64,000 bases of DNA, from contig JAUWOR010000007.1 of NCBI GenBank assembly GCA_030612025.1, positions 32,332 to 96,331 on the forward strand, given 5' to 3'. Source of the stretch: Dehalococcoidia bacterium. Its GTDB lineage: Bacteria > Chloroflexota > Dehalococcoidia > GIF9 > AB-539-J10. The notes beneath the pieces are model-generated. The model saw only the letters and a list, made by a program, of their open reading frames with translations. It was not told the origin of the DNA and did no database searches. The translations under genes and the position numbers were made by a program. How positions within the stretch are numbered: the stretch's first letter is position 1; each line of letters begins with the position of its first letter. Below are positions 20,659 through 50,144 of the stretch, one piece after another.

Positions 20659-20931
20659 ACTCAAAAATTCGCCTGCTTGATGAAAACTAAAATCAATCAC
20701 AAAATTCCTTATAATCCTCCCTCCCCTAGCGGGAGGGAGGAAGAGGGAGGGGGAAATTCACCCTCACCTTACCTCTCTTGTAAGGAAGAAAAATTCATTA
20801 CATGAGAGGTATTTTTTCACGATACCATGCGGAAGACTATAAGAATTCATGTAACATGCACCTGGTTACATCACCAGGGCGAGTAAACCTAGCCCACCGC
20901 CTCTTCCTCAAGGAGAGACCGCTTCTTTTTC
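20659..20931 (+). repeat. ~270-bp direct repeat, copy 1
   Basis: Near-identical to 23171-23445. Confidence 0.9.
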
Positions 20932-21069
20932 CTAACGGAGTTTGTTAAACGTTCTGCTATTCCGAAAAGAAGCGCCAATCGAATTCTAGAGAAATTAAAT
21001 GAACAAAATACAATTAAACTTACGTGATTATCCCTTGACAACAAGTAATCCCTATATTATAATGGAAGC

Positions 21070-21918
21070 ATGAAGAAATACACAATAGTAGATTTCAACA
21101 AAGATTTCCCCGATGATGACGCTTGCCTACAATGGCTAAAGAACTATCTTTATCCTAATGGTATCTTCTGCAAACAATGTGGAATGGTCACAACACACCA
21201 CAAAGTAGGTAAACGGCCGTGCTATGCCTGTGCCCGATGTGGTAGTCATGTTTACCCGATGGTAGGGACTATCTTTGAGAAATCCGTTACACCGCTCAAG
21301 CTCTGGTTCTATGCTATCTTCCTTATAAGTTCTACTCGCTGCGGTATATCAGCCAAGCAACTTCAACGAGAGTTAGGAGTTACTTACAAAACAGCTTGGC
21401 GTATATTCCATGCAATTCGCTCCCTACTACGAGAGGACACCAAGCCTATGTCCGGAGAAGTTGAAATAGACGAAACTTACATCGGTGGGAAAGCTCATGG
21501 CAAGCGTGGCTGTGGTGCCGGGAATAAGACCCTTGTATTCGGCATGGCACAACGACAGGGCGACCTGAAGGCCTTTGCAACTAGCAACGTCAAACACTCA
21601 ACTATCTATCCTATTATGAAGCAGCATATCTTACCCCAAAGTATGATTTACACCGATGAATTTACGACGTACGATAACCTAAACCAACAAGGTTATCATC
21701 ACAAACAGGTGCATCATGCCTCAAAAGTCTACGTTTCTGGCAATGCACACACCAATACAGTCGAAGGCTTTTGGAGTGTATTAAAGTGTGGTATTGATGG
21801 CGTGTATCATGCCGTAAGTGAGAAGCACTTACAAGGTTATATCAACGAGTATAGTTTCAGGTATAATCACAGGCAAGATGATAAGCCTATGTTTAAGACG
21901 GGTTTGGAGAAGATTTAG
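21070..21918 (+). CDS. IS1595 family (ISXO2-like) DDE transposase
   Basis: Zn ribbon CxxC..CxxC, HTH ISAKQLQRELGVTYKTAW, EIDETY, YTDE, HTNTVEG, FRYN. Confidence 0.95.
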   Translation: MKKYTIVDFNKDFPDDDACLQWLKNYLYPNGIFCKQCGMVTTHHKVGKRPCYACARCGSHVYPMVGTIFEKSVTPLKLWFYAIFLISSTRCGISAKQLQRELGVTYKTAWRIFHAIRSLLREDTKPMSGEVEIDETYIGGKAHGKRGCGAGNKTLVFGMAQRQGDLKAFATSNVKHSTIYPIMKQHILPQSMIYTDEFTTYDNLNQQGYHHKQVHHASKVYVSGNAHTNTVEGFWSVLKCGIDGVYHAVSEKHLQGYINEYSFRYNHRQDDKPMFKTGLEKI

Positions 21919-22009
21919 GCTTTTCTATTCGGCGACAAGCCTTCTTTAGGGCGAAGCTAAAGCTCTTCTTTGTAGTAGAGATTTGCTTTATGTCTATCGG
22001 TTTTGTCAT
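21893..22009 (-). CDS. 38-aa antisense microprotein overlapping the transposase 3' end
   Basis: MTKPIDIKQISTTKKSFSFALKKACRRIEKPKSSPNPS; ATGA overlap with toxin stop; same-length homolog at 48534-48650. Confidence 0.6.
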   Translation of the reverse strand: MTKPIDIKQISTTKKSFSFALKKACRRIEKPKSSPNPS

Positions 22010-22383
22010 GGCTCTATAATACGCAACCTGTCATCGAGTCCTAGGCTTATTTGTAGAGCTTTATCGACTTCGTCCATTTTCTCTTTACTCAGTTCACCAC
22101 ACTTATCACCCAGTCGTGACTTTTCTATCGTCATTATTGTTGCCAAATTAATATTACAACCCTTCGGTAACCCACTCTCCTGAGCCGTTACAGGCACAAG
22201 GAAAGGAAATGGCTTCTCTGGGGCAGTACTACAACTAGCAACAATTGTTGTTGGGCTGACTTCATTTCCAATATCATTTTGAATTATTAAGGCTGGTCTT
22301 GTGCCTATTATTTCAGTACCCCTACCAGGACTCCAATCTACCCAATATAATTCCCCACGCCTACACTTAATCGCCATTGCCAC
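22006..22383 (-). CDS. mazF: PemK/MazF family toxin
   Basis: RGELYWVD..PGRG.E..G.RPALIIQND.GN, MDEVDKALQISLGL. Confidence 0.92.
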   Translation of the reverse strand: MAMAIKCRRGELYWVDWSPGRGTEIIGTRPALIIQNDIGNEVSPTTIVASCSTAPEKPFPFLVPVTAQESGLPKGCNINLATIMTIEKSRLGDKCGELSKEKMDEVDKALQISLGLDDRLRIIEP

Positions 22384-22384
22384 A

Positions 22385-22630
22385 TTATTTCCACTCAGGC
22401 AAGACCTCGTGTGCTATTTCCATAGCTTCTCTCGCAACTTGCAGGTTTCCCTCTGCCATGACTCTATAACCCTCTACCATCTCCTCACGTAAACGCTTAT
22501 CTGCAAACTCCTGCAAACACGTAGAAAACACTTTGCTACGACTTACATTCCACTCGTTTGCAATTTCATCGATCAATGCGATTAAGTCACGAGGCACACT
22601 AATAGTCAACTTCGCCACCTTCACAGTCAT
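22385..22630 (-). CDS. Ribbon-helix-helix antitoxin (MazE/NdoAI-like)
   Basis: KLTISVPRDL..LID......VSRS; EMVEGYRVMA. Confidence 0.88.
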   Translation of the reverse strand: MTVKVAKLTISVPRDLIALIDEIANEWNVSRSKVFSTCLQEFADKRLREEMVEGYRVMAEGNLQVAREAMEIAHEVLPEWK

Positions 22631-22807
22631 AACTTTCCTCCTTACATTATGTTATGATATATTTGGAGTAAAAATATAACTTAACAAAAATTATTTGTCA
22701 ACTTGCGTTGATGGGATAATCACGTAAAATTATTAAAGAGGGAAAGGGAACAAGACCGCCAGTTTTCATATTTTCAGAATTAATCGAAATCGTTGGGTAA
22801 AGAATTT

Positions 22808-23170: not shown

Positions 23171-23445
23171 ACTCAGAAAATCGCCTGCTTGATGAAAACT
23201 ATAGTCAATCACAAAATTCCTTATAATCCTCCCTCCCCTAGCGGGAGGGAGTTAGAGGGAGGGGGAAATTCACCCTCACCTAACCTCTCTTGTAAGGAAG
23301 AAAAATTCATTACATGAGAGGTATTTTTTCACGATACTATGCGGAAGACTATAAGAATTTATGTAACATGCGCCCGGTTATATCACCAGGGCGAGTAACT
23401 TTGCTCCGACGGTCTCTTCCTCGTGAAGAGGCCGTTTTCTTTTTT
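23171..23445 (+). repeat. ~270-bp direct repeat, copy 2, ending in hairpin plus T-tract
   Basis: Near-identical to 20659-20931; cggtctcttc-ctcgt-gaagaggccg then ttttcttttt. Confidence 0.9.
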
Positions 23446-46383: not shown

Positions 46384-47679
46384 ATGAACCTTGCTTCACA
46401 AATTGAACACTATCTACCTCAACAACTCCTAGAGTTGGCTAGAAATATTAGCTTGGAGGCTGAGCGACTGGGGCAAAAGATATATCTTGTTGGCGGTGTG
46501 GTACGAGACTTGCTTCTAGGTTATCCTAATTTCGACCTAGATTTGGTAATCGAAGGTGATGCCGTAAAGTTAGCACGGCGGATAGCTAAAATTAGTGACA
46601 CAAAGTTGATTATACATCCTCGCTTTGGCACTGCTAAGCTTAGCTACAGCAATTTCACTTTAGACATGGCTACTGCGCGAGGTGAAACTTATGCCAGGCC
46701 AGGCGCATTACCAACAGTTACCCCAGGTTCCCTCAACGGCGATCTCTTTCGCCGGGATTTCTCCATCAATGCCATGGCTATATCCCTCAACCAAAACAAT
46801 TACGGAGAATTGATCGACCCCTATCAGGGTAAAAACGATCTAGAGCACCATCTTATCCGCATTCTGCACCCAAGGAGTTTCAGCGACGATGCCACTAGAA
46901 TTTTACGAGCTATCCGCTACGAGCAACGACTGGAATTTGAGCTCGAACCACAAACTGCACAGCTGCTTAAACGGGATATTCCTATGCTAAATGCCATAAG
47001 CGGTGACCGCATAAGACATGAACTGGAGCTAATACTCAGGGAGAGATATCCCGAATATGCCATTAAACGACTTGGCGAGCTAGGAGTGCTGCAGAGGATA
47101 AATCCGTCTCTCAACTATGATGGCTGGATTGCCAAGAAATTTGATAAAGCACGGTCACTTAATAAACCTAGCCAACTCCCCTCACTTTATCTATGTCTTC
47201 TTGTTTACCCTCTTGATGAAAGGGGAAATGAGCAGTTCATCCACCGTCTTAATATACCCAAAAAATTAGCCTGCGCATTGCGTGATACACTTCGCTTAAA
47301 GAGTCAACTTCACCTCCTAGACAAATCTTCCCTGAAATATAGTGAAATTTATTACTTACTTCATGAGTATGACCTATTAGCTATCCAGACCAACGCCATA
47401 GCCTCAGAATCTTCAGTTGTGTGTTCCAATCTCGAGCTGTTTTTAACTAAATTGAGGTACGTAAAGACCTCCCTCAACGGAGAGGAGCTAAAAAGGCTAG
47501 GTATTTCCGCCGGGCCAGAGTTAGGGAAAATCCTCCAAATACTACATAAGGCGAAATTGGATGGAGAGGTCAAGAATAAGGCAGAAGAAGAAAAACTAGC
47601 ACTATTACGGAAACCACAAGGGCAAGAGACGGAAGATTCTCTGACCAAAGTAACAAAACAAAACGTGATTATCCCTTGA
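46384..47679 (+). CDS. CCA tRNA nucleotidyltransferase / poly(A) polymerase family
   Basis: VGGVVRD, DLD, RRDFSINAMA, DDATRILRA; stop lies inside the IS left end. Confidence 0.93.
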   Translation: MNLASQIEHYLPQQLLELARNISLEAERLGQKIYLVGGVVRDLLLGYPNFDLDLVIEGDAVKLARRIAKISDTKLIIHPRFGTAKLSYSNFTLDMATARGETYARPGALPTVTPGSLNGDLFRRDFSINAMAISLNQNNYGELIDPYQGKNDLEHHLIRILHPRSFSDDATRILRAIRYEQRLEFELEPQTAQLLKRDIPMLNAISGDRIRHELELILRERYPEYAIKRLGELGVLQRINPSLNYDGWIAKKFDKARSLNKPSQLPSLYLCLLVYPLDERGNEQFIHRLNIPKKLACALRDTLRLKSQLHLLDKSSLKYSEIYYLLHEYDLLAIQTNAIASESSVVCSNLELFLTKLRYVKTSLNGEELKRLGISAGPELGKILQILHKAKLDGEVKNKAEEEKLALLRKPQGQETEDSLTKVTKQNVIIP

Positions 47680-47710
47680 CAACAAGTAAGCCCTATGCTA
47701 TAATAGAAAC

Positions 47711-48559
47711 ATGAAGAAATATACAATAGTAGATTTTAACATAGATTTCCCAGATGATGATGCTTGCTTAGAATGGTTAAAGAACTATCTTTATCCAAGT
47801 GGTATCTTCTGCAAGCAATGTGGAATGACCACAACACATCATAAAGTAGGCAAACGGCTGTGCTATGCTTGCAGTCGGTGCGGTAGCCATGTTTACCCAA
47901 TGGTAGGAACTATCTTTGAGAAATCCGTTACACCGCTCAAGCTCTGGTTCTATGCTATCTTCCTGATAAGCTCCACTCGCTGCGGTATATCAGCTAAGCA
48001 ACTTCAACGAGAGTTAGGAGTTACTTACAAAACAGCTTGGCGTATGTTCCATTCAATCCGCTCATTATTACAAGAAGAGATTAAACCTATGTCCGGCGAA
48101 GTTGAAATGGATGAAACCTATATCGGCGGGAAAGGACGTGGCAAGCGTGGGCGTGGTGCTGAGAACAAAACGCCGGTATTCGGTATGGTTCAACGTAAGG
48201 GTACAGTTAAAGCTTTGAAAACTAGAGACTTAAAGAGTGCTACAGTCTATCCGCTTGTTAGGGCTCATATTCTCCCGCAGAGTATGATTTACACAGATGA
48301 ATTTACTACATACGACAGCTTGAAGAAACAAGGTTATCATCATAAACGAGTGCAGCACGCCTCAAAAGTCTATGTCTCTGGCAATGCACATACCAACACA
48401 ATTGAAGGCTTTTGGAGCGTATTAAAACGTAGTATTGATGGCGTTTACCACGCCGTAAGTGAGAAGCATCTACAAAGTTATATCAACGAGTATAGCTTTA
48501 GATACAATCATCGTGGAGATGAGAAGCCTATGTTTAAGACGATTTTGGAGAAGGTTTAG
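47711..48559 (+). CDS. IS1595 family DDE transposase
   Basis: Same motifs as 21070-21918; ~84% aa identity by manual count. Confidence 0.95.
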   Translation: MKKYTIVDFNIDFPDDDACLEWLKNYLYPSGIFCKQCGMTTTHHKVGKRLCYACSRCGSHVYPMVGTIFEKSVTPLKLWFYAIFLISSTRCGISAKQLQRELGVTYKTAWRMFHSIRSLLQEEIKPMSGEVEMDETYIGGKGRGKRGRGAENKTPVFGMVQRKGTVKALKTRDLKSATVYPLVRAHILPQSMIYTDEFTTYDSLKKQGYHHKRVQHASKVYVSGNAHTNTIEGFWSVLKRSIDGVYHAVSEKHLQSYINEYSFRYNHRGDEKPMFKTILEKV

Positions 48560-48650
48560 GCTTCTTAATAGGCCGACAAGCCTTCTTTAAGGCAATCTCA
48601 AAATCCTGCCTTGGTAGAGATAGTTTCTTGACATCTATTTGTTTAACCAT
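48534..48650 (-). CDS. 38-aa antisense microprotein overlapping the transposase 3' end
   Basis: MVKQIDVKKLSLPRQDFEIALKKACRPIKKPKPSPKSS; 21/38 identical to copy 1. Confidence 0.6.
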   Translation of the reverse strand: MVKQIDVKKLSLPRQDFEIALKKACRPIKKPKPSPKSS

Positions 48651-48733
48651 TGCGGATTATCCAACTCTAGATTCAAGCACATCTCTTAGTATTGTTATCA
48701 GTAAGCCCATAGAAACAGTGACTTGGATTATAT

Positions 48734-48976
48734 TCACTCAGTATATACCTTGACCCCAAGGCCCTTCAGTATATTCTTTACAATTTCAATCGCTGGCAGG
48801 TCATTTAATTTGACTCCTTCACTTACTGCAAGTAGGTCTACCCCCACAGGTTTCCCAGGGTTTATAGAATAATCAACGAGACGATTATCATCAAGTTCCT
48901 TAGTATATCCAATAGGTTCACTATTCAACTGAATATAGACAGCATCTGCTACTGGGTCGCTTTCTACGTGTAACAT
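48734..48976 (-). CDS. DUF2283 domain protein (putative antitoxin)
   Basis: D..ADAVYI.L, T.ELD....VDY...GKPVGVDLL; GGAGG RBS. Confidence 0.85.
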   Translation of the reverse strand: MLHVESDPVADAVYIQLNSEPIGYTKELDDNRLVDYSINPGKPVGVDLLAVSEGVKLNDLPAIEIVKNILKGLGVKVYTE

Positions 48977-48996
48977 ATTATCCTCCTAATCCTATA

Positions 48997-49230
48997 TTAC
49001 ATATAAGTAAATACGTCCACCACAATAATAGGCTTAGCACAAACATTCCTCACCCTAACCTTCATATTCCGACCATCTGGGAGTTTGCATACCCAAACTG
49101 TATCTCCTCCAACCTTGTATGTCCTGGTTTGGTGAAACTTGCAAAACCAAACATGTGCTTCACTAAGGACACGAGCAGACATACGAGATAATGCATAACT
49201 CGTAAACTCCACAGATTTATCTTGTGCCAC
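48997..49230 (-). CDS. DUF4258-like putative toxin (usual His appears as Tyr)
   Basis: FTSYALSRM..R versus usual FxxHAxxRMxxR; IIVVDVF; upstream of DUF2283. Confidence 0.6.
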   Translation of the reverse strand: MAQDKSVEFTSYALSRMSARVLSEAHVWFCKFHQTRTYKVGGDTVWVCKLPDGRNMKVRVRNVCAKPIIVVDVFTYM

Positions 49231-49425
49231 AACGCTCGCAGATTATCTCCCATACCGATACTATCGGTATGCCTTAAATACTAGTGATATTGTTACTCTA
49301 TGAAACAATATATACATTGTGTTGCATTTGTCAAGTTTTTGTCCATGTTTTTCCATATTTTGTCGGTTACTACGCTTGACACCCCCCATTATAGTAGTAT
49401 AATCCCAATTAGAGGAGGTGATATT

Positions 49426-49737
49426 ATGGCGGATAAATGTACGTGGATGGGTGCATCTGGCAAGGAATACTTATACGACATCTATCCAATAAATACTGAT
49501 TGGAATGATGTGTCAGGAAACTATATCTTTGCGAAGGAGCCCTCACCCCATAAGTGGCAAGCCGTATACATAGGTGAAACGGAAAGCTTCAAGGACCGAC
49601 TACCCACCCATAATGAATTACCATGTATTAAGCGTAATGGGGGTACGCATGTACACACCCATACTAACAGCAATAGTCGTGCCAGATTAGACGAAGAGAA
49701 AGATTTGCTTGCCAACAATACGACCCCGTGTAACTAA
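49426..49737 (+). CDS. Stand-alone GIY-YIG nuclease-like protein
   Basis: GNYIF...VYIGET....RL..H...E..L.....P.N; own TTGACA/TATAAT promoter and GGAGG RBS. Confidence 0.8.
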   Translation: MADKCTWMGASGKEYLYDIYPINTDWNDVSGNYIFAKEPSPHKWQAVYIGETESFKDRLPTHNELPCIKRNGGTHVHTHTNSNSRARLDEEKDLLANNTTPCN

Positions 49738-49979
49738 TAATCTAGTAGACCTTTTTTGACCAGTTTCCCTATTTGTCGTGCGGCTTGTTTAGGGATATGC
49801 TTAACAGGCTGCCATTGCCCTGTTTCCGTAGGGGATAGCACCACAAAGCAATGGTCATCTATGGTAATACCACATTTGCAGTTATGTCCAACATCGACTA
49901 ACCATTCTGGTTGCCAATTAGGTTTAACATCTACTATGTCCTCTTGCGCTTGTATAACCATAATACCTCCATTTATCAT
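49734..49979 (-). CDS. Small hypothetical protein (CxC..HC)
   Basis: ORF track; GGAGG before MVIQAQ. Confidence 0.55.
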   Translation of the reverse strand: MINGGIMVIQAQEDIVDVKPNWQPEWLVDVGHNCKCGITIDDHCFVVLSPTETGQWQPVKHIPKQAARQIGKLVKKGLLDY

Positions 49980-50144
49980 TTACTTGTCTCTATGGTATAA
50001 TCACGAAACAAAATATACTTAGGGAATCTTCCCCCCAGCAAGGTAATAAGAACCTCCACAACGGTATTTTTGACGCTCCGGCGATTAATCCTGCGATGTC
50101 AAACGATAAAACAGGTTGAAGAGAATTGTAACTGAATTAGCTAC

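What the first reader, a model, noticed from the sequence alone, without database searches (positions are those of the whole stretch)
21893..22009. Conserved unannotated 38-aa antisense microprotein as a core part of the IS1595 element
Seen: both elements encode a 38-codon ORF on the opposite strand overlapping the last 26 nt of the transposase (21893-22009; 48534-48650). The peptides are 21/38 identical, have no indels or stops, show conservative swaps (I/V, I/L, K/R) and share F..ALKKACR.I.KPK. Homology between the elements ends about at this ATG. In copy 1 it is coupled to the MazF stop by an ATGA overlap. Inference: a basic amphipathic peptide, or its antisense transcript, links cargo expression to control of transposition.
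Basis: partly seen in the sequence, partly recalled or inferred. Interest (0 to 1): 0.8.

Follow-up and report, generated by a model that had tools for sequence, protein, structure and literature searches.

The report
Conserved microprotein partner of IS1595 transposase
A tiny unannotated gene lying tail-to-tail with the transposase of a group of cargo-carrying jumping genes is a real, strongly conserved protein that probably clamps onto the transposase, so this supposedly one-gene transposon family has a second core part.

Summary

**The ORFs.** Both 38-codon minus-strand ORFs exist (21893-22009; 48534-48650). Each overlaps the last 26 nt of an IS1595-type transposase gene. The two copies alone prove little.

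**Conservation.** A profile of the peptide core (T..F..aLKKAa.P) was run on 160 fetched relatives plus the two window copies.
- It hits 74 loci. Every hit is on the strand opposite the transposase and 3' of it.
- By transposase identity to copy 1, the hits are 32 of 33 loci at >=60% and 0 of 51 loci at <43%.
- In 17 loci, cargo genes separate the small ORF from the transposase.
- In the non-overlapping core, dN/dS is 0.11-0.16 with 0 stops in 1020 codons. This equals the transposase value (0.10-0.11).
- No Pfam, NCBIfam or PHROGs family matches.

**The elements.** Both window elements are complete transposons with 8-bp target duplications and toxin-antitoxin-type cargo. The small ORF usually ends a cargo operon that reads towards the transposase.

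**Predicted binding.** A complex prediction places the peptide's helix (F17, L21) on the transposase N-terminal zinc-ribbon/HTH region. The score is 0.79 against 0.01 for the best control.

**Reading.** It is most likely a small transposase-binding subunit. Whether it activates or inhibits is not settled, and neither translation nor binding has been shown experimentally.

**Earlier notes.** This scan had noted cargo-carrying IS1595 elements on other DNA, but not this gene.

The parts
21893..22009 (-). Small ORF, copy 1 (38 aa). Core motif residues 9-31; predicted helix 14-24.
   Evidence: ORF listed. Profile hit E 2e-10. AF2 model with alignment A5: helix 14-24, mean pLDDT 76.8. Predicted interface residues 5-28.
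48534..48650 (-). Small ORF, copy 2 (38 aa).
   Evidence: ORF listed. Profile hit E 1e-11. 21 of 38 residues identical to copy 1.
21070..21918 (+). IS1595-family transposase, copy 1 (282 aa). N-terminal helices, zinc ribbon and HTH (about residues 1-120), then the DDE domain.
   Evidence: Pfam DDE_Tnp_IS1595 and Zn_ribbon_IS1595. AF2 model pLDDT 85.6 with helices 6-12, 16-27, 76-88, 95-102 and 106-119. D134 and D196 are invariant, E232 nearly invariant (at least 90%) and K239 invariant in A4.
47711..48559 (+). IS1595-family transposase, copy 2 (282 aa).
   Evidence: ORF listed. 84% identical to copy 1. DNA 82% identical over 982 nt.
21023..22724 (.). Whole element 1 (1702 bp). Imperfect terminal inverted repeats 21023-21046 and 22701-22724.
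   Evidence: Inverted repeat found. ACGTGATTATCCC lies at 21022-21034 (+) and 22713-22725 (-).
21015..21022 (.). Left target-site duplication of element 1 (TAAACTTA).
   Evidence: Read. Matches 22725-22732 (TAAAATTA) at 7 of 8 positions.
22725..22732 (.). Right target-site duplication of element 1 (TAAAATTA).
   Evidence: Read.
22006..22383 (-). Cargo of element 1: PemK/MazF-type toxin gene. Its stop overlaps the small ORF's ATG.
   Evidence: Pfam PemK_toxin E 2.6e-27. Overlap read.
22385..22630 (-). Cargo of element 1: ribbon-helix-helix antitoxin-type gene.
   Evidence: Pfam RHH_1 E 1.7e-4.
22673..22701 (-). Promoter-like site just inside the right end. It faces inwards towards RHH, MazF and the small ORF.
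   Evidence: 11 of 12 consensus positions. This is a consensus match only.
21035..21063 (+). Promoter-like site in the left inverted repeat, upstream of the transposase.
   Evidence: 12 of 12 consensus positions. This is a consensus match only.
47664..50005 (.). Whole element 2 (2342 bp). Inverted repeats 47664-47689 and 49980-50005 (20 of 26 match), flanked by a perfect 8-bp duplication AAACAAAA (47656-47663 and 50006-50013).
   Evidence: Read. Right-end motif with 2 mismatches found.
48734..48976 (-). Cargo of element 2: DUF2283 gene, co-oriented with the small ORF. It ends 83 nt upstream of the small ORF's ATG.
   Evidence: Pfam DUF2283 E 5.5e-6. Spacing.
48997..49230 (-). Cargo of element 2: 77-aa ORF with no family match.

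Best explanation
The 38-codon ORF is a genuine protein gene. It is the second conserved gene of one clade of IS1595-family transposons that always carry cargo.

Shown:
- The ORF is conserved under purifying selection as strong as that on the transposase.
- It always lies on the opposite strand, 3' of the transposase.
- It usually sits at the end of a variable cargo operon that reads inwards from the element's right end.

Inferred:
- The cargo operon's transcript is translated into a peptide of about 40-60 aa.
- The peptide's short strand plus one amphipathic helix carries the two nearly invariant residues F17 and L21. It docks into a groove formed by the transposase's N-terminal helices and the first helix of its HTH.
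- It therefore acts as a small transposase subunit.

Most likely role: it is needed to form or stabilise the N-terminal DNA-binding module. The transposase would then be competent only when the right-end (cargo) operon is expressed. Given binding, I put a positive or structural role at about 55% and an inhibitory role at about 35%.

Convergent transcription into the transposase gene may add a second, negative layer. That layer is inferred only.
For: 1. Strand and position.
- A profile of the core was run against all six-frame segments (30,745) of 162 loci.
- It gave 74 hits in 74 loci. All lie on the strand opposite the transposase and 3' of it.

2. Tracks the transposase.
- Among loci with >=150 nt of 3' room, hits by transposase identity to copy 1 are: 32 of 33 at >=60%, 30 of 44 at 50-60%, 11 of 30 at 43-50%, and 0 of 51 below 43%.
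- Core identity correlates with transposase identity: Spearman 0.30, with 0 of 500 label permutations reaching it.
- In a reverse search of 401 genomes of the phylum, 8 genomes matched, the window's own among them. Of the 8 places outside the window's own genome, 6 lie convergent to a transposase gene or its 3' remnant.

3. Coding.
- In non-overlapping core codons, dN/dS is 0.155 (bootstrap 0.11-0.21) over 27 independent pairs.
- There are 0 stops in 1020 codons.
- Differences at codon positions 1/2/3 are 109/81/222.
- The other five frames give dN/dS 0.37-1.64 with 22-104 stops.
- In the >=60% band the value is 0.110, against 0.111 for the transposase of the same pairs.

4. Not dependent on the overlap.
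- In 17 loci the ORF lies more than 60 nt beyond the transposase stop; in the cases shown the distance is about 300-1130 nt.
- A partly overlapping set was also tested: the 19 loci whose aligned core lies wholly outside the transposase ORF. Seven independent pairs from that set give dN/dS 0.19.

5. Operon coupling: 38 of 74 loci, 9 with a 4-nt overlap. Shine-Dalgarno-like sequences lie before several starts.

6. Binding.
- Complex prediction gave ipSAE 0.79 (runs 0.82, 0.78, 0.79) against a best control of 0.01.
- Partner pLDDT is >=63 and the runs share >=61% of contacts.
- In the tool's calibration, this mark was reached by 58 of 80 solved complexes and 2 of 110 mismatched pairs. The counts hold only roughly because my own alignments were used.
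- The interface covers peptide residues 5-28 and transposase residues 1-9, 22-27, 66-69, 80-89, 93, 97, 101 and 116-122.
- No solved relative of either chain exists by sequence, so the pass is not a recalled complex.
- The two nearly invariant peptide columns, F17 and L21, are the central contacts.

7. Five loci (L112, L122, L123, L169, L170) carry the motif as the C-terminal tail of a long ORF. In the four complete ones it is a 342-375 aa trypsin-like protease ORF, and two of these reach a Pfam Trypsin_2 hit. In L112 the ORF is cut by the contig end. A docking peptide would tolerate this.
Against: - No evidence of transcription or translation: no RNA run holds the stretch.
- Binding is a model only. 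The controls were unrelated proteins without alignments, so they are easier to beat.
- Mutual-information covariation between peptide and transposase columns shows no enrichment at the predicted contacts. Mann-Whitney p is 0.20 for 25 contact pairs and 0.10 per interface residue, with 61 sequences, which is underpowered.
- The loci for the dN/dS test were chosen by a profile in this frame, which biases towards conservation. The bias is small in the >=60% band, where 32 of 33 loci were included.
- The two window copies alone show no wobble bias (12/7/13).
- 14 of 44 loci at 50-60% and 19 of 30 at 43-50% have no profile hit. Some carry divergent look-alikes (L015, L017, L018, L023, L028, seen). 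The transposase can evidently do without this exact protein.
- Activator versus inhibitor rests on argument, not on data.
Confidence: 0.5

Rival explanations
1. The peptide binds the transposase but as an inhibitor, giving copy-number or cargo-dependent repression. It would occupy the N-terminal domain, block end binding or synapsis, or, where fused to a protease, target the transposase for cleavage.
For: - The same predicted interface applies.
- The gene is convergent and is expressed from the opposite end. No terminator-like site lies between it and the transposase (0 found).
- It is fused to trypsin-like proteases in L122, L123, L169 and L170 (in L112 the ORF is cut by the contig end), and it sits directly after a proteasome-like gene in L090.
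- IS-encoded inhibitors are common in established knowledge (IS1 InsA, Tn5 Inh; recalled).
Against: - A diffusible inhibitor is not expected to be kept as tightly as the transposase itself by element-level selection. Observed values are dN/dS 0.11 against 0.11, and 32 of 33 retention.
- The contacts are buried hydrophobic residues packed against a very hydrophobic helix (residues 76-88). This looks like completion of a fold rather than blocking of a surface.
Confidence: 0.27
2. It is a real protein, but the transposase is not its target. It could bind the element's ends or other DNA, or serve the cargo operon, for example as a shared regulator or adaptor of cargo proteins.
For: - It is the last gene of cargo operons.
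- The window copies are very basic.
- On its own it is predicted to be mostly disordered: the Atlas model has pLDDT 0.39.
- Three of the eight reverse-search places keep it next to only a 35-55 aa transposase remnant.
Against: - The cargo is unrelated from locus to locus: MazEF, HicAB-like by eye, Panacea, GHKL ATPase, DUF2299, proteases and membrane proteins. The peptide stays the same.
- It co-diverges with the transposase.
- The complex prediction passes strongly.
Confidence: 0.13
3. The working agent is the convergent antisense transcript over the transposase 3' end. The peptide is incidental.
For: - There is a 26-nt overlap in the window copies, and up to about 110-140 nt in relatives.
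- No terminator-like site lies in element 1.
Against: - Selection is on amino acids in the part that does not overlap.
- 17 loci have no overlap at all.
- The conserved motif always lies outside the transposase ORF in adjacent copies.
Confidence: 0.06
4. It is not a gene. It would be a chance open antisense frame over a DNA-level conserved block, such as a transposase binding site, a recombination junction, or a read-through extension of the transposase.
For: - The two window copies alone are not decisive.
- The transposase frame happens to stay open for 33 codons past its TAG in copy 1 (read).
Against: - There are 0 stops in 1020 codons, and dN/dS is 0.11-0.16 only in this frame.
- The five other frames, the transposase's own read-through frame among them, carry 22-104 stops in 966-1020 codons, with dN/dS of 1.2-1.6 in four and 0.37 in the one that shares wobble positions.
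- 209 clusters of such small proteins exist in public predictions.
Confidence: 0.02

Closest known systems
IS1595-family insertion sequences with passenger genes (transporter IS). By my recollection of ISfinder, the ISNwi1-type subgroup.
   Same: - DDE_Tnp_IS1595 plus Zn-ribbon transposase.
- 8-bp target duplications.
- Imperfect terminal inverted repeats of the type ..GTGATTATCCC.. / ..GGTAAGTATCCC...
- Element sizes of 1.55-3.4 kb with unrelated passenger genes.
- The conserved D134, D196, E232, K239 pattern.
   Different: - The family is described as having a single transposase gene (PMC8101967, passages seen).
- Here a second gene is as conserved as the transposase.
- The subgroup names and their end consensus are recalled, not checked. 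The defining paper (Siguier, Gagnevin and Chandler 2009) is not in the searched library.
IS911 OrfA and IS1 InsA: small IS-encoded proteins that modulate their transposase (recalled).
   Same: A small protein encoded by the element. It is predicted here to act on the N-terminal, DNA-binding part of the transposase.
   Different: - OrfA and InsA are the N-terminal part of the transposase frame itself. They are made without frameshifting and carry the HTH or zinc finger.
- This peptide is a separate gene on the opposite strand with no detectable domain.
IS10/Tn10 RNA-OUT antisense control (recalled).
   Same: A product read from the strand opposite the transposase, inside the element.
   Different: - RNA-OUT is untranslated and pairs with the 5' end of the transposase mRNA.
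- Here the overlap is at the 3' end and is absent in 17 loci. Selection is on the amino acids.
Tail-to-tail overlapping gene pairs of prokaryotes.
   Same: The two stops overlap. The acidic 'DDGCSE..' tails of many relatives are the antisense image of the transposase FRYNHR region.
   Different: The functional core lies outside the overlap and is selected in its own right.

Membership tests
IS1595 family (ISfinder) | Transposase with the DDE_Tnp_IS1595 catalytic domain. | tested here: met
   PF12762 E 7.7e-43, residues 127-266.
IS1595 family (ISfinder) | N-terminal zinc-finger/ribbon domain (all groups except IS1016). | tested here: met
   PF12760 E 1.7e-6, residues 14-59. C19, C34, C54 and C57 are invariant and C37 nearly invariant (at least 90%) in A4.
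IS1595 family (ISfinder) | 8-bp target-site duplications and terminal inverted repeats. | tested here: met
   Element 2 has a perfect AAACAAAA duplication. Element 1 matches at 7 of 8 positions. Inverted repeats.
IS1595 family (ISfinder) | A single transposase gene, as stated in PMC8101967 (passages). | tested here: not met
   A second conserved gene is present in 32 of 33 close relatives, plus passenger genes. The element is still a member by its transposase and ends. It departs from the family description on this point.
ISNwi1-type subgroup with passenger genes (definition recalled) | Ends of the type ggnnatTAT, a DDEK catalytic pattern, and 1.7-4.7 kb forms with passenger genes. | tested here: inconclusive
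   The ends CGTGATTATCCC and GGTAAGTATCCC, the D134/D196/E232/K239 pattern and the sizes all fit. The definition comes from memory, and no ISfinder comparison was possible.
IS-encoded N-terminal regulators (IS1 InsA, IS911 OrfA type) | The product shares the transposase's own N-terminal DNA-binding domain and reading frame. | tested here: not met
   The gene is on the opposite strand, with no HTH or zinc finger and no family hit.
cis-antisense RNA regulators of transposases (RNA-OUT type) | Non-coding RNA whose action depends on overlap with the transposase mRNA. | tested here: not met
   Protein-level selection. 17 loci have no overlap.
Any curated protein family (Pfam, NCBIfam, PHROGs) | A profile match above threshold. 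| tested here: not met
   0 of 22 members matched a shared family. Only single chance-level hits appeared. PADLOC was not searched.

The most novel reading that the evidence does not exclude
The motif is a universal docking tag through which the element's cargo talks to its transposase. In most elements it is released as a microprotein, translationally coupled to the last cargo gene. In others it is the C-terminal tail of a cargo protease. Whatever the cargo operon does (toxin-antitoxin state, protease activity) would then be converted physically into transposase activity or destruction. That would be a cargo-sensing transposition switch, with the peptide as an interchangeable adaptor.
Probability: 0.18. 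Interest if true: 0.85.

Novelty: new variant of a known kind. Interest (0 to 1): 0.7.

Why it matters
- IS1595 elements, and their eukaryotic Merlin relatives, are treated as one-gene transposons. A second gene kept as tightly as the transposase changes how these elements should be annotated, how their activity should be reconstituted in vitro, and how their regulation is understood.
- This adds a widespread microprotein family that standard annotation mostly misses. At least 209 clusters at 50% identity exist in public predictions, and none carries a curated family or name.
- It offers a compact, testable case of a peptide of about 25 residues recognising a transposase DNA-binding module.
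- The elements carry toxin-antitoxin and other defence-like cargo. The peptide may be the link between cargo expression and mobility.

Tried and rejected
- **Two-copy statistics.** Not decisive on their own.
- **Read-through extension of the transposase past its TAG.** Rejected. None of the three transposase-strand frames behaves as coding: 22-104 stops in 966-1020 codons, with dN/dS 1.26 and 1.64 in two and 0.37 in the third, which shares wobble positions with the small-ORF frame.
- **Intrinsic terminator or hairpin after the transposase stop.** The scan found 0 terminator-like sites in 20950-22800.
- **Known families.** Pfam, NCBIfam and PHROGs on 22 members gave nothing shared. The PDB by sequence gave nothing for either chain beyond E 0.69. 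The ESM Atlas gave only 'hypothetical protein' clusters below 0.9.
- **The search for homologous proteins.** It was repeated with a 63-aa relative first and returned 17 proteins; the two rows that carry a source name say 'hypothetical protein'.
- **RNA evidence.** No RNA holder is listed among 24 runs.
- **Covariation between peptide and transposase columns.** No enrichment at predicted contacts (p 0.20 and 0.10). The test is underpowered and settles nothing.
- **Profile broadened with public proteins.** At the tighter E limit of 0.001 it gave 67 locus ORFs, all on the opposite strand. This is fewer than the 74 at E <=0.01, and it added L119. I report the 74.
- **A minimal element with no cargo.** None was seen among loci with convincing inverted repeats. 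The shortest is about 1.55-1.6 kb.
- **Fold search of the transposase model.** It returned only generic retroviral-integrase and ISCth4 DDE folds (TM 0.3-0.4). This says nothing about the peptide site.
- **Literature.** Four searches were run:
  - 'IS1595' + 'passenger genes';
  - 'IS1595 family' / 'ISPna2' / 'ISNwi1';
  - 'IS1595' + 'toxin-antitoxin';
  - 'IS1595' with second/small/two/overlapping ORF terms.
  No listed title or abstract start mentions a second conserved IS1595 gene. Apart from PMC8101967 (passages), only listings were seen. A mention there cannot be excluded.
Full report
**What is in the window.**
- Two 38-codon ORFs on the minus strand, 21893-22009 and 48534-48650, each overlap the last 26 nt of a 282-aa gene on the plus strand (21070-21918; 47711-48559).
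- Those genes carry the Pfam domains DDE_Tnp_IS1595 and Zn_ribbon_IS1595.
- The two peptides are 21 of 38 identical with no indel. At the nucleotide level they are 82 of 117 identical.
- The two elements align well up to the ORF's ATG and not beyond it.
- In copy 1 the ATG overlaps the stop of a PemK/MazF-type gene as ATGA.
- Taken alone, the two copies are weak evidence. Differences fall 12/7/13 on codon positions 1/2/3 of the 30 non-overlapping codons. 272 of 5000 column shuffles reach 21 identities, and 6 of 5000 do so with both frames open.
- The window's genome (1.4 Mb, 19 contigs) holds only these two copies, 82% identical over 982 nt.

**Both copies are complete transposons with cargo.**
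- Element 1 runs from 21023 to 22724 (1702 bp). It has imperfect inverted repeats, and its 8-bp flanks TAAACTTA and TAAAATTA match at 7 of 8 positions.
- Element 1 carries an RHH gene and the MazF-type gene upstream of the small ORF, on the same strand.
- Element 2 runs from 47664 to 50005 (2342 bp), with a perfect 8-bp duplication AAACAAAA.
- Element 2 carries a DUF2283 gene and further small ORFs.
- In element 1, promoter-like sites face inwards from both ends. One matches 12 of 12 consensus positions in the left repeat, before the transposase. The other matches 11 of 12 just inside the right repeat, before RHH, MazF and the small ORF. No terminator-like site was found. These are consensus matches only.

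**Relatives.**
- I fetched 80 loci from species-representative genomes (best 80 of 186 relatives).
- I fetched 80 more from metagenome contigs (best 80 of 400).
- By eye, the antisense frame at the transposase 3' end carried a shared motif in many of them.
- I built a profile from ten such segments, iterated it, and searched all stop-to-stop segments of >=15 aa in all six frames of the 160 loci plus the two window copies (30,745 segments).
- This gave 74 hits at E <=0.01, one per locus. All lie on the strand opposite the transposase and 3' of it.
- Among loci with at least 150 nt of sequence 3' of the transposase, the hits are:

| Transposase identity to copy 1 | Loci with a hit |
|---|---|
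| >=60% | 32 of 33 |
| 50-60% | 30 of 44 |
| 43-50% | 11 of 30 |
| <43% | 0 of 51 |

- The single miss in the top band, L141, keeps only the overlapping tail of the ORF.
- Some misses at 43-60% carry look-alikes that the profile does not reach (L015, L017, L018, L023, L028). The lower-band counts are therefore minimum figures.
- 56 hits are adjacent to or overlap the transposase stop. 17 lie more than 60 nt beyond it, with other genes between; in the cases shown the distance is about 300-1130 nt. One further hit lies in a locus with less than 150 nt of 3' sequence.
- 67 of the 74 have an ATG upstream of the motif within the open segment. The other 7 have a GTG or TTG start, are cut by a contig end, or in one case (L145) are truncated.

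**It is coding.**
- I threaded codons onto the profile alignment and kept only codons that lie wholly outside the transposase ORF.
- I then took 27 phylogenetically independent pairs.
- In the small-ORF frame, dN/dS is 0.155 (bootstrap 0.11-0.21), with 0 stops in 1020 codons. Differences are 109/81/222 at codon positions 1/2/3 over 510 codon pairs.
- The other five frames give dN/dS of 0.37-1.64 with 22-104 stops. The 0.37 frame shares wobble positions with the ORF and has 22 stops.
- Restricted to the >=60% band, where almost every locus was included, the value is 0.110, against 0.111 for the transposase of the same pairs.
- For pairs of 70-98.5% nucleotide identity it is 0.111, against 0.099 for the transposase.
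- For copies whose core lies entirely outside the transposase ORF it is 0.19, against 0.094.
- The alignment was selected with a protein profile in this frame, which favours the result. The top-band figure is the least affected.
- Several relatives have Shine-Dalgarno-like sequences before the start.

**It belongs to the element, not to the cargo.**
- Convincing inverted repeats (..GTGATTATCCCTTGAC.. and variants) bound elements of about 1.55-3.4 kb. No cargo-free element was seen.
- The cargo differs from locus to locus: MazEF-type, a SocA/Panacea antitoxin, a GHKL ATPase, DUF2299, a proteasome-like protein, trypsin-like proteases and membrane proteins.
- The peptide core's identity correlates with transposase identity (Spearman 0.30; 0 of 500 permutations reach it).
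- In the reverse direction, the peptide alignment found matches in 8 of 401 genomes of the phylum, the window's own among them.
- Of the 8 places outside the window's genome, 3 lie convergent to a whole or long partial transposase gene. Three lie next to only its last 35-55 codons. Two have none within 1.5 kb.
- In 38 of 74 loci a co-oriented ORF of >=50 aa ends within 30 nt of the small ORF's ATG or overlaps it. Nine have a 4-nt overlap and two a 1-nt overlap. Several of these loci are near-identical to each other.

**How widespread and how well known it is.**
- A profile search of 1.84 billion cluster representatives found 209 proteins at E <=0.001 and 7 at <=1e-10. Most are 50-70 aa with the consensus PLTKK.FE.LL.KAAQP.
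- A few are longer proteins with the motif at the C-terminus. One hit (P0021, 1373 aa) is an unrelated repeat protein.
- The acidic 'DDGCSE..HSD..ED' tail of many members is the antisense image of the transposase's FRYNHR region, so it is not independent conservation.
- The 17 proteins found in the 90% clusters have no Pfam domain, and the two that carry a source name are called 'hypothetical protein'.
- Pfam, NCBIfam and PHROGs give no shared family for 22 members.
- In a PGAP-annotated alphaproteobacterial plasmid whose transposase is 44.5% identical, a 68-aa antisense ORF of a divergent variant is not annotated.
- A paper on Merlin and IS1595 states that members of the family 'have a single transposase gene' (PMC8101967, passages seen).
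- My four literature searches found no description of a second conserved gene. The family-defining paper and ISfinder were out of reach.

**What it may do.**
- With an alignment of 54 relatives, AlphaFold2 models the 38-aa peptide as one helix (residues 14-24, mean pLDDT 76.8) with extended ends. The Atlas's alignment-free model of a relative is disordered.
- The transposase model has pLDDT 85.6. It shows two N-terminal helices (6-12, 16-27), a zinc ribbon (32-54), a three-helix HTH (76-88, 95-102, 106-119), the DDE domain, and a last helix (274-281).
- Complex prediction was run with my alignments of both chains. It scored 0.79 (runs 0.82, 0.78, 0.79) against 0.01 for the best of three controls.
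- Partner pLDDT was >=63 and >=61% of contacts were shared between runs.
- In the tool's calibration, this mark was reached by 58 of 80 solved complexes and 2 of 110 mismatched pairs. These figures hold only roughly, because my own alignments were used.
- The peptide's residues 5-28 touch transposase residues 1-9, 22-27, 66-69, 80-89, 93, 97, 101 and 116-122. The two nearly invariant residues F17 and L21 sit at the centre.
- Neither chain has a solved relative by sequence, so the pass is not a recalled complex.
- A mutual-information test on 61 paired sequences showed no enrichment at the predicted contacts (p 0.20 and 0.10). That test is underpowered and leaves the model unconfirmed.

**Reading.**
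- Shown: it is a real, selected protein gene that is part of this IS clade and is usually the last cistron of the cargo operon.
- Inferred: it binds the transposase N-terminal DNA-binding module.
- I lean to a positive, structural role for three reasons:
  - It is kept as tightly as the transposase.
  - Its buried hydrophobic contacts pack on a very hydrophobic helix.
  - Transposases of lineages without it carry extra C-terminal tails, which might do the same job in cis (untested).
- An inhibitory role is the main rival. It would fit the convergent layout and the five loci (L112, L122, L123, L169, L170) where the motif is the C-terminal tail of a long ORF. In four of them the ORF is complete and is a 342-375 aa trypsin-like protease ORF; Pfam Trypsin_2 was hit at E 5.9e-7 for L169 and E 3.2e-4 for L122, and not for L170. 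L123 and L112 were not scanned, and the L112 ORF is cut by the contig end.
- A purely RNA-level role does not fit the 17 non-overlapping loci or the amino-acid selection. A chance ORF is excluded.

**Standing.**
- The element itself is an ordinary cargo-carrying IS1595-family transposon. By my recollection of ISfinder it is ISNwi1-like in its ends and its DDEK pattern; I did not check this.
- What is new is the second core gene and its predicted contact with the transposase.
- Earlier notes of this scan described cargo-carrying IS1595 elements in other genomes, one of them with protease cargo. They did not mention this gene.
- No RNA data exist for the stretch. Translation and binding remain to be shown.

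Noticed in passing
window 20659-20886 and 23171-23398: Two direct copies of a 228-nt repeat, 95% identical, flank element 1 about 140 nt to the left and 440 nt to the right. Each copy overlaps small ORFs that begin MMKT..INHKIPYNPPSPSGRE. Its relation to the MITE-like family noted earlier in this genome was not checked.
   Followed up: partly
L030-L082 (transposases <43% identical); also L019, L105, L010/L011, L149/L150, L018: Transposases without the small ORF are 10-30 aa longer at the C-terminus. The distant group ends in a conserved '..RLTYKELI..' tail. Some closer ones end in 'RVRxGxHGxYxPIG' or '..FRLLLxRAxxxRP'. These tails might replace the peptide in cis. This was not tested.
   Followed up: no
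L122:3818-4846(-), L123, L112 (cut), L169:499-1626(+), L170:511-1599(+): Four of these loci hold a complete trypsin-like protease ORF of 342-375 aa with the small-protein motif as its C-terminal tail. In L112 the ORF with the tail is cut by the contig end. Pfam Trypsin_2 was hit by L169 and L122 only; L170 gave no hit, and L123 and L112 were not scanned. L169 has no Met near the motif, so there it is a true fusion.
   Followed up: partly
L090:4030-4728(-); L093, L094, L095: A proteasome-subunit-like gene (Pfam Proteasome, E 4e-10 in L090) lies directly upstream of, and overlaps, a long-N-terminus version of the small ORF. The 276-278 aa genes in L093-L095 look similar by eye but gave no Pfam hit.
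   Followed up: partly
L166, L171, L173 (genomes G078, G363, G141): Here the small ORF is kept next to only the last 35-55 codons of a transposase gene. These look like decayed elements that retained the peptide and presumably the cargo.
   Followed up: no
L163:3800-4006(-) (plasmid CP122394.1); L024, L027, L028: A divergent antisense small ORF has an extra N-terminal 'L.L.EA...G.L..FI.EH' motif. It sits at the same place beside transposases of 43-45% identity from Alphaproteobacteria and Verrucomicrobia, and it is unannotated in the plasmid record. Homology to the window peptide was not established.
   Followed up: partly
window 46384-47679: The ORF upstream of element 2 is a 431-aa ORF that looked to me like a CCA-adding/poly(A) polymerase type; I did not scan it. 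It runs into the element's left end and stops inside the inverted repeat. The insertion has therefore replaced its last codons.
   Followed up: no
L108:1212-1807(-) compared with window 22006-22630(-): A MazEF-type cargo occurs on either side of the small ORF in different elements. In L108 it lies between the transposase and the small ORF. In the window it lies upstream of the small ORF. The cargo slot is therefore not fixed.
   Followed up: no
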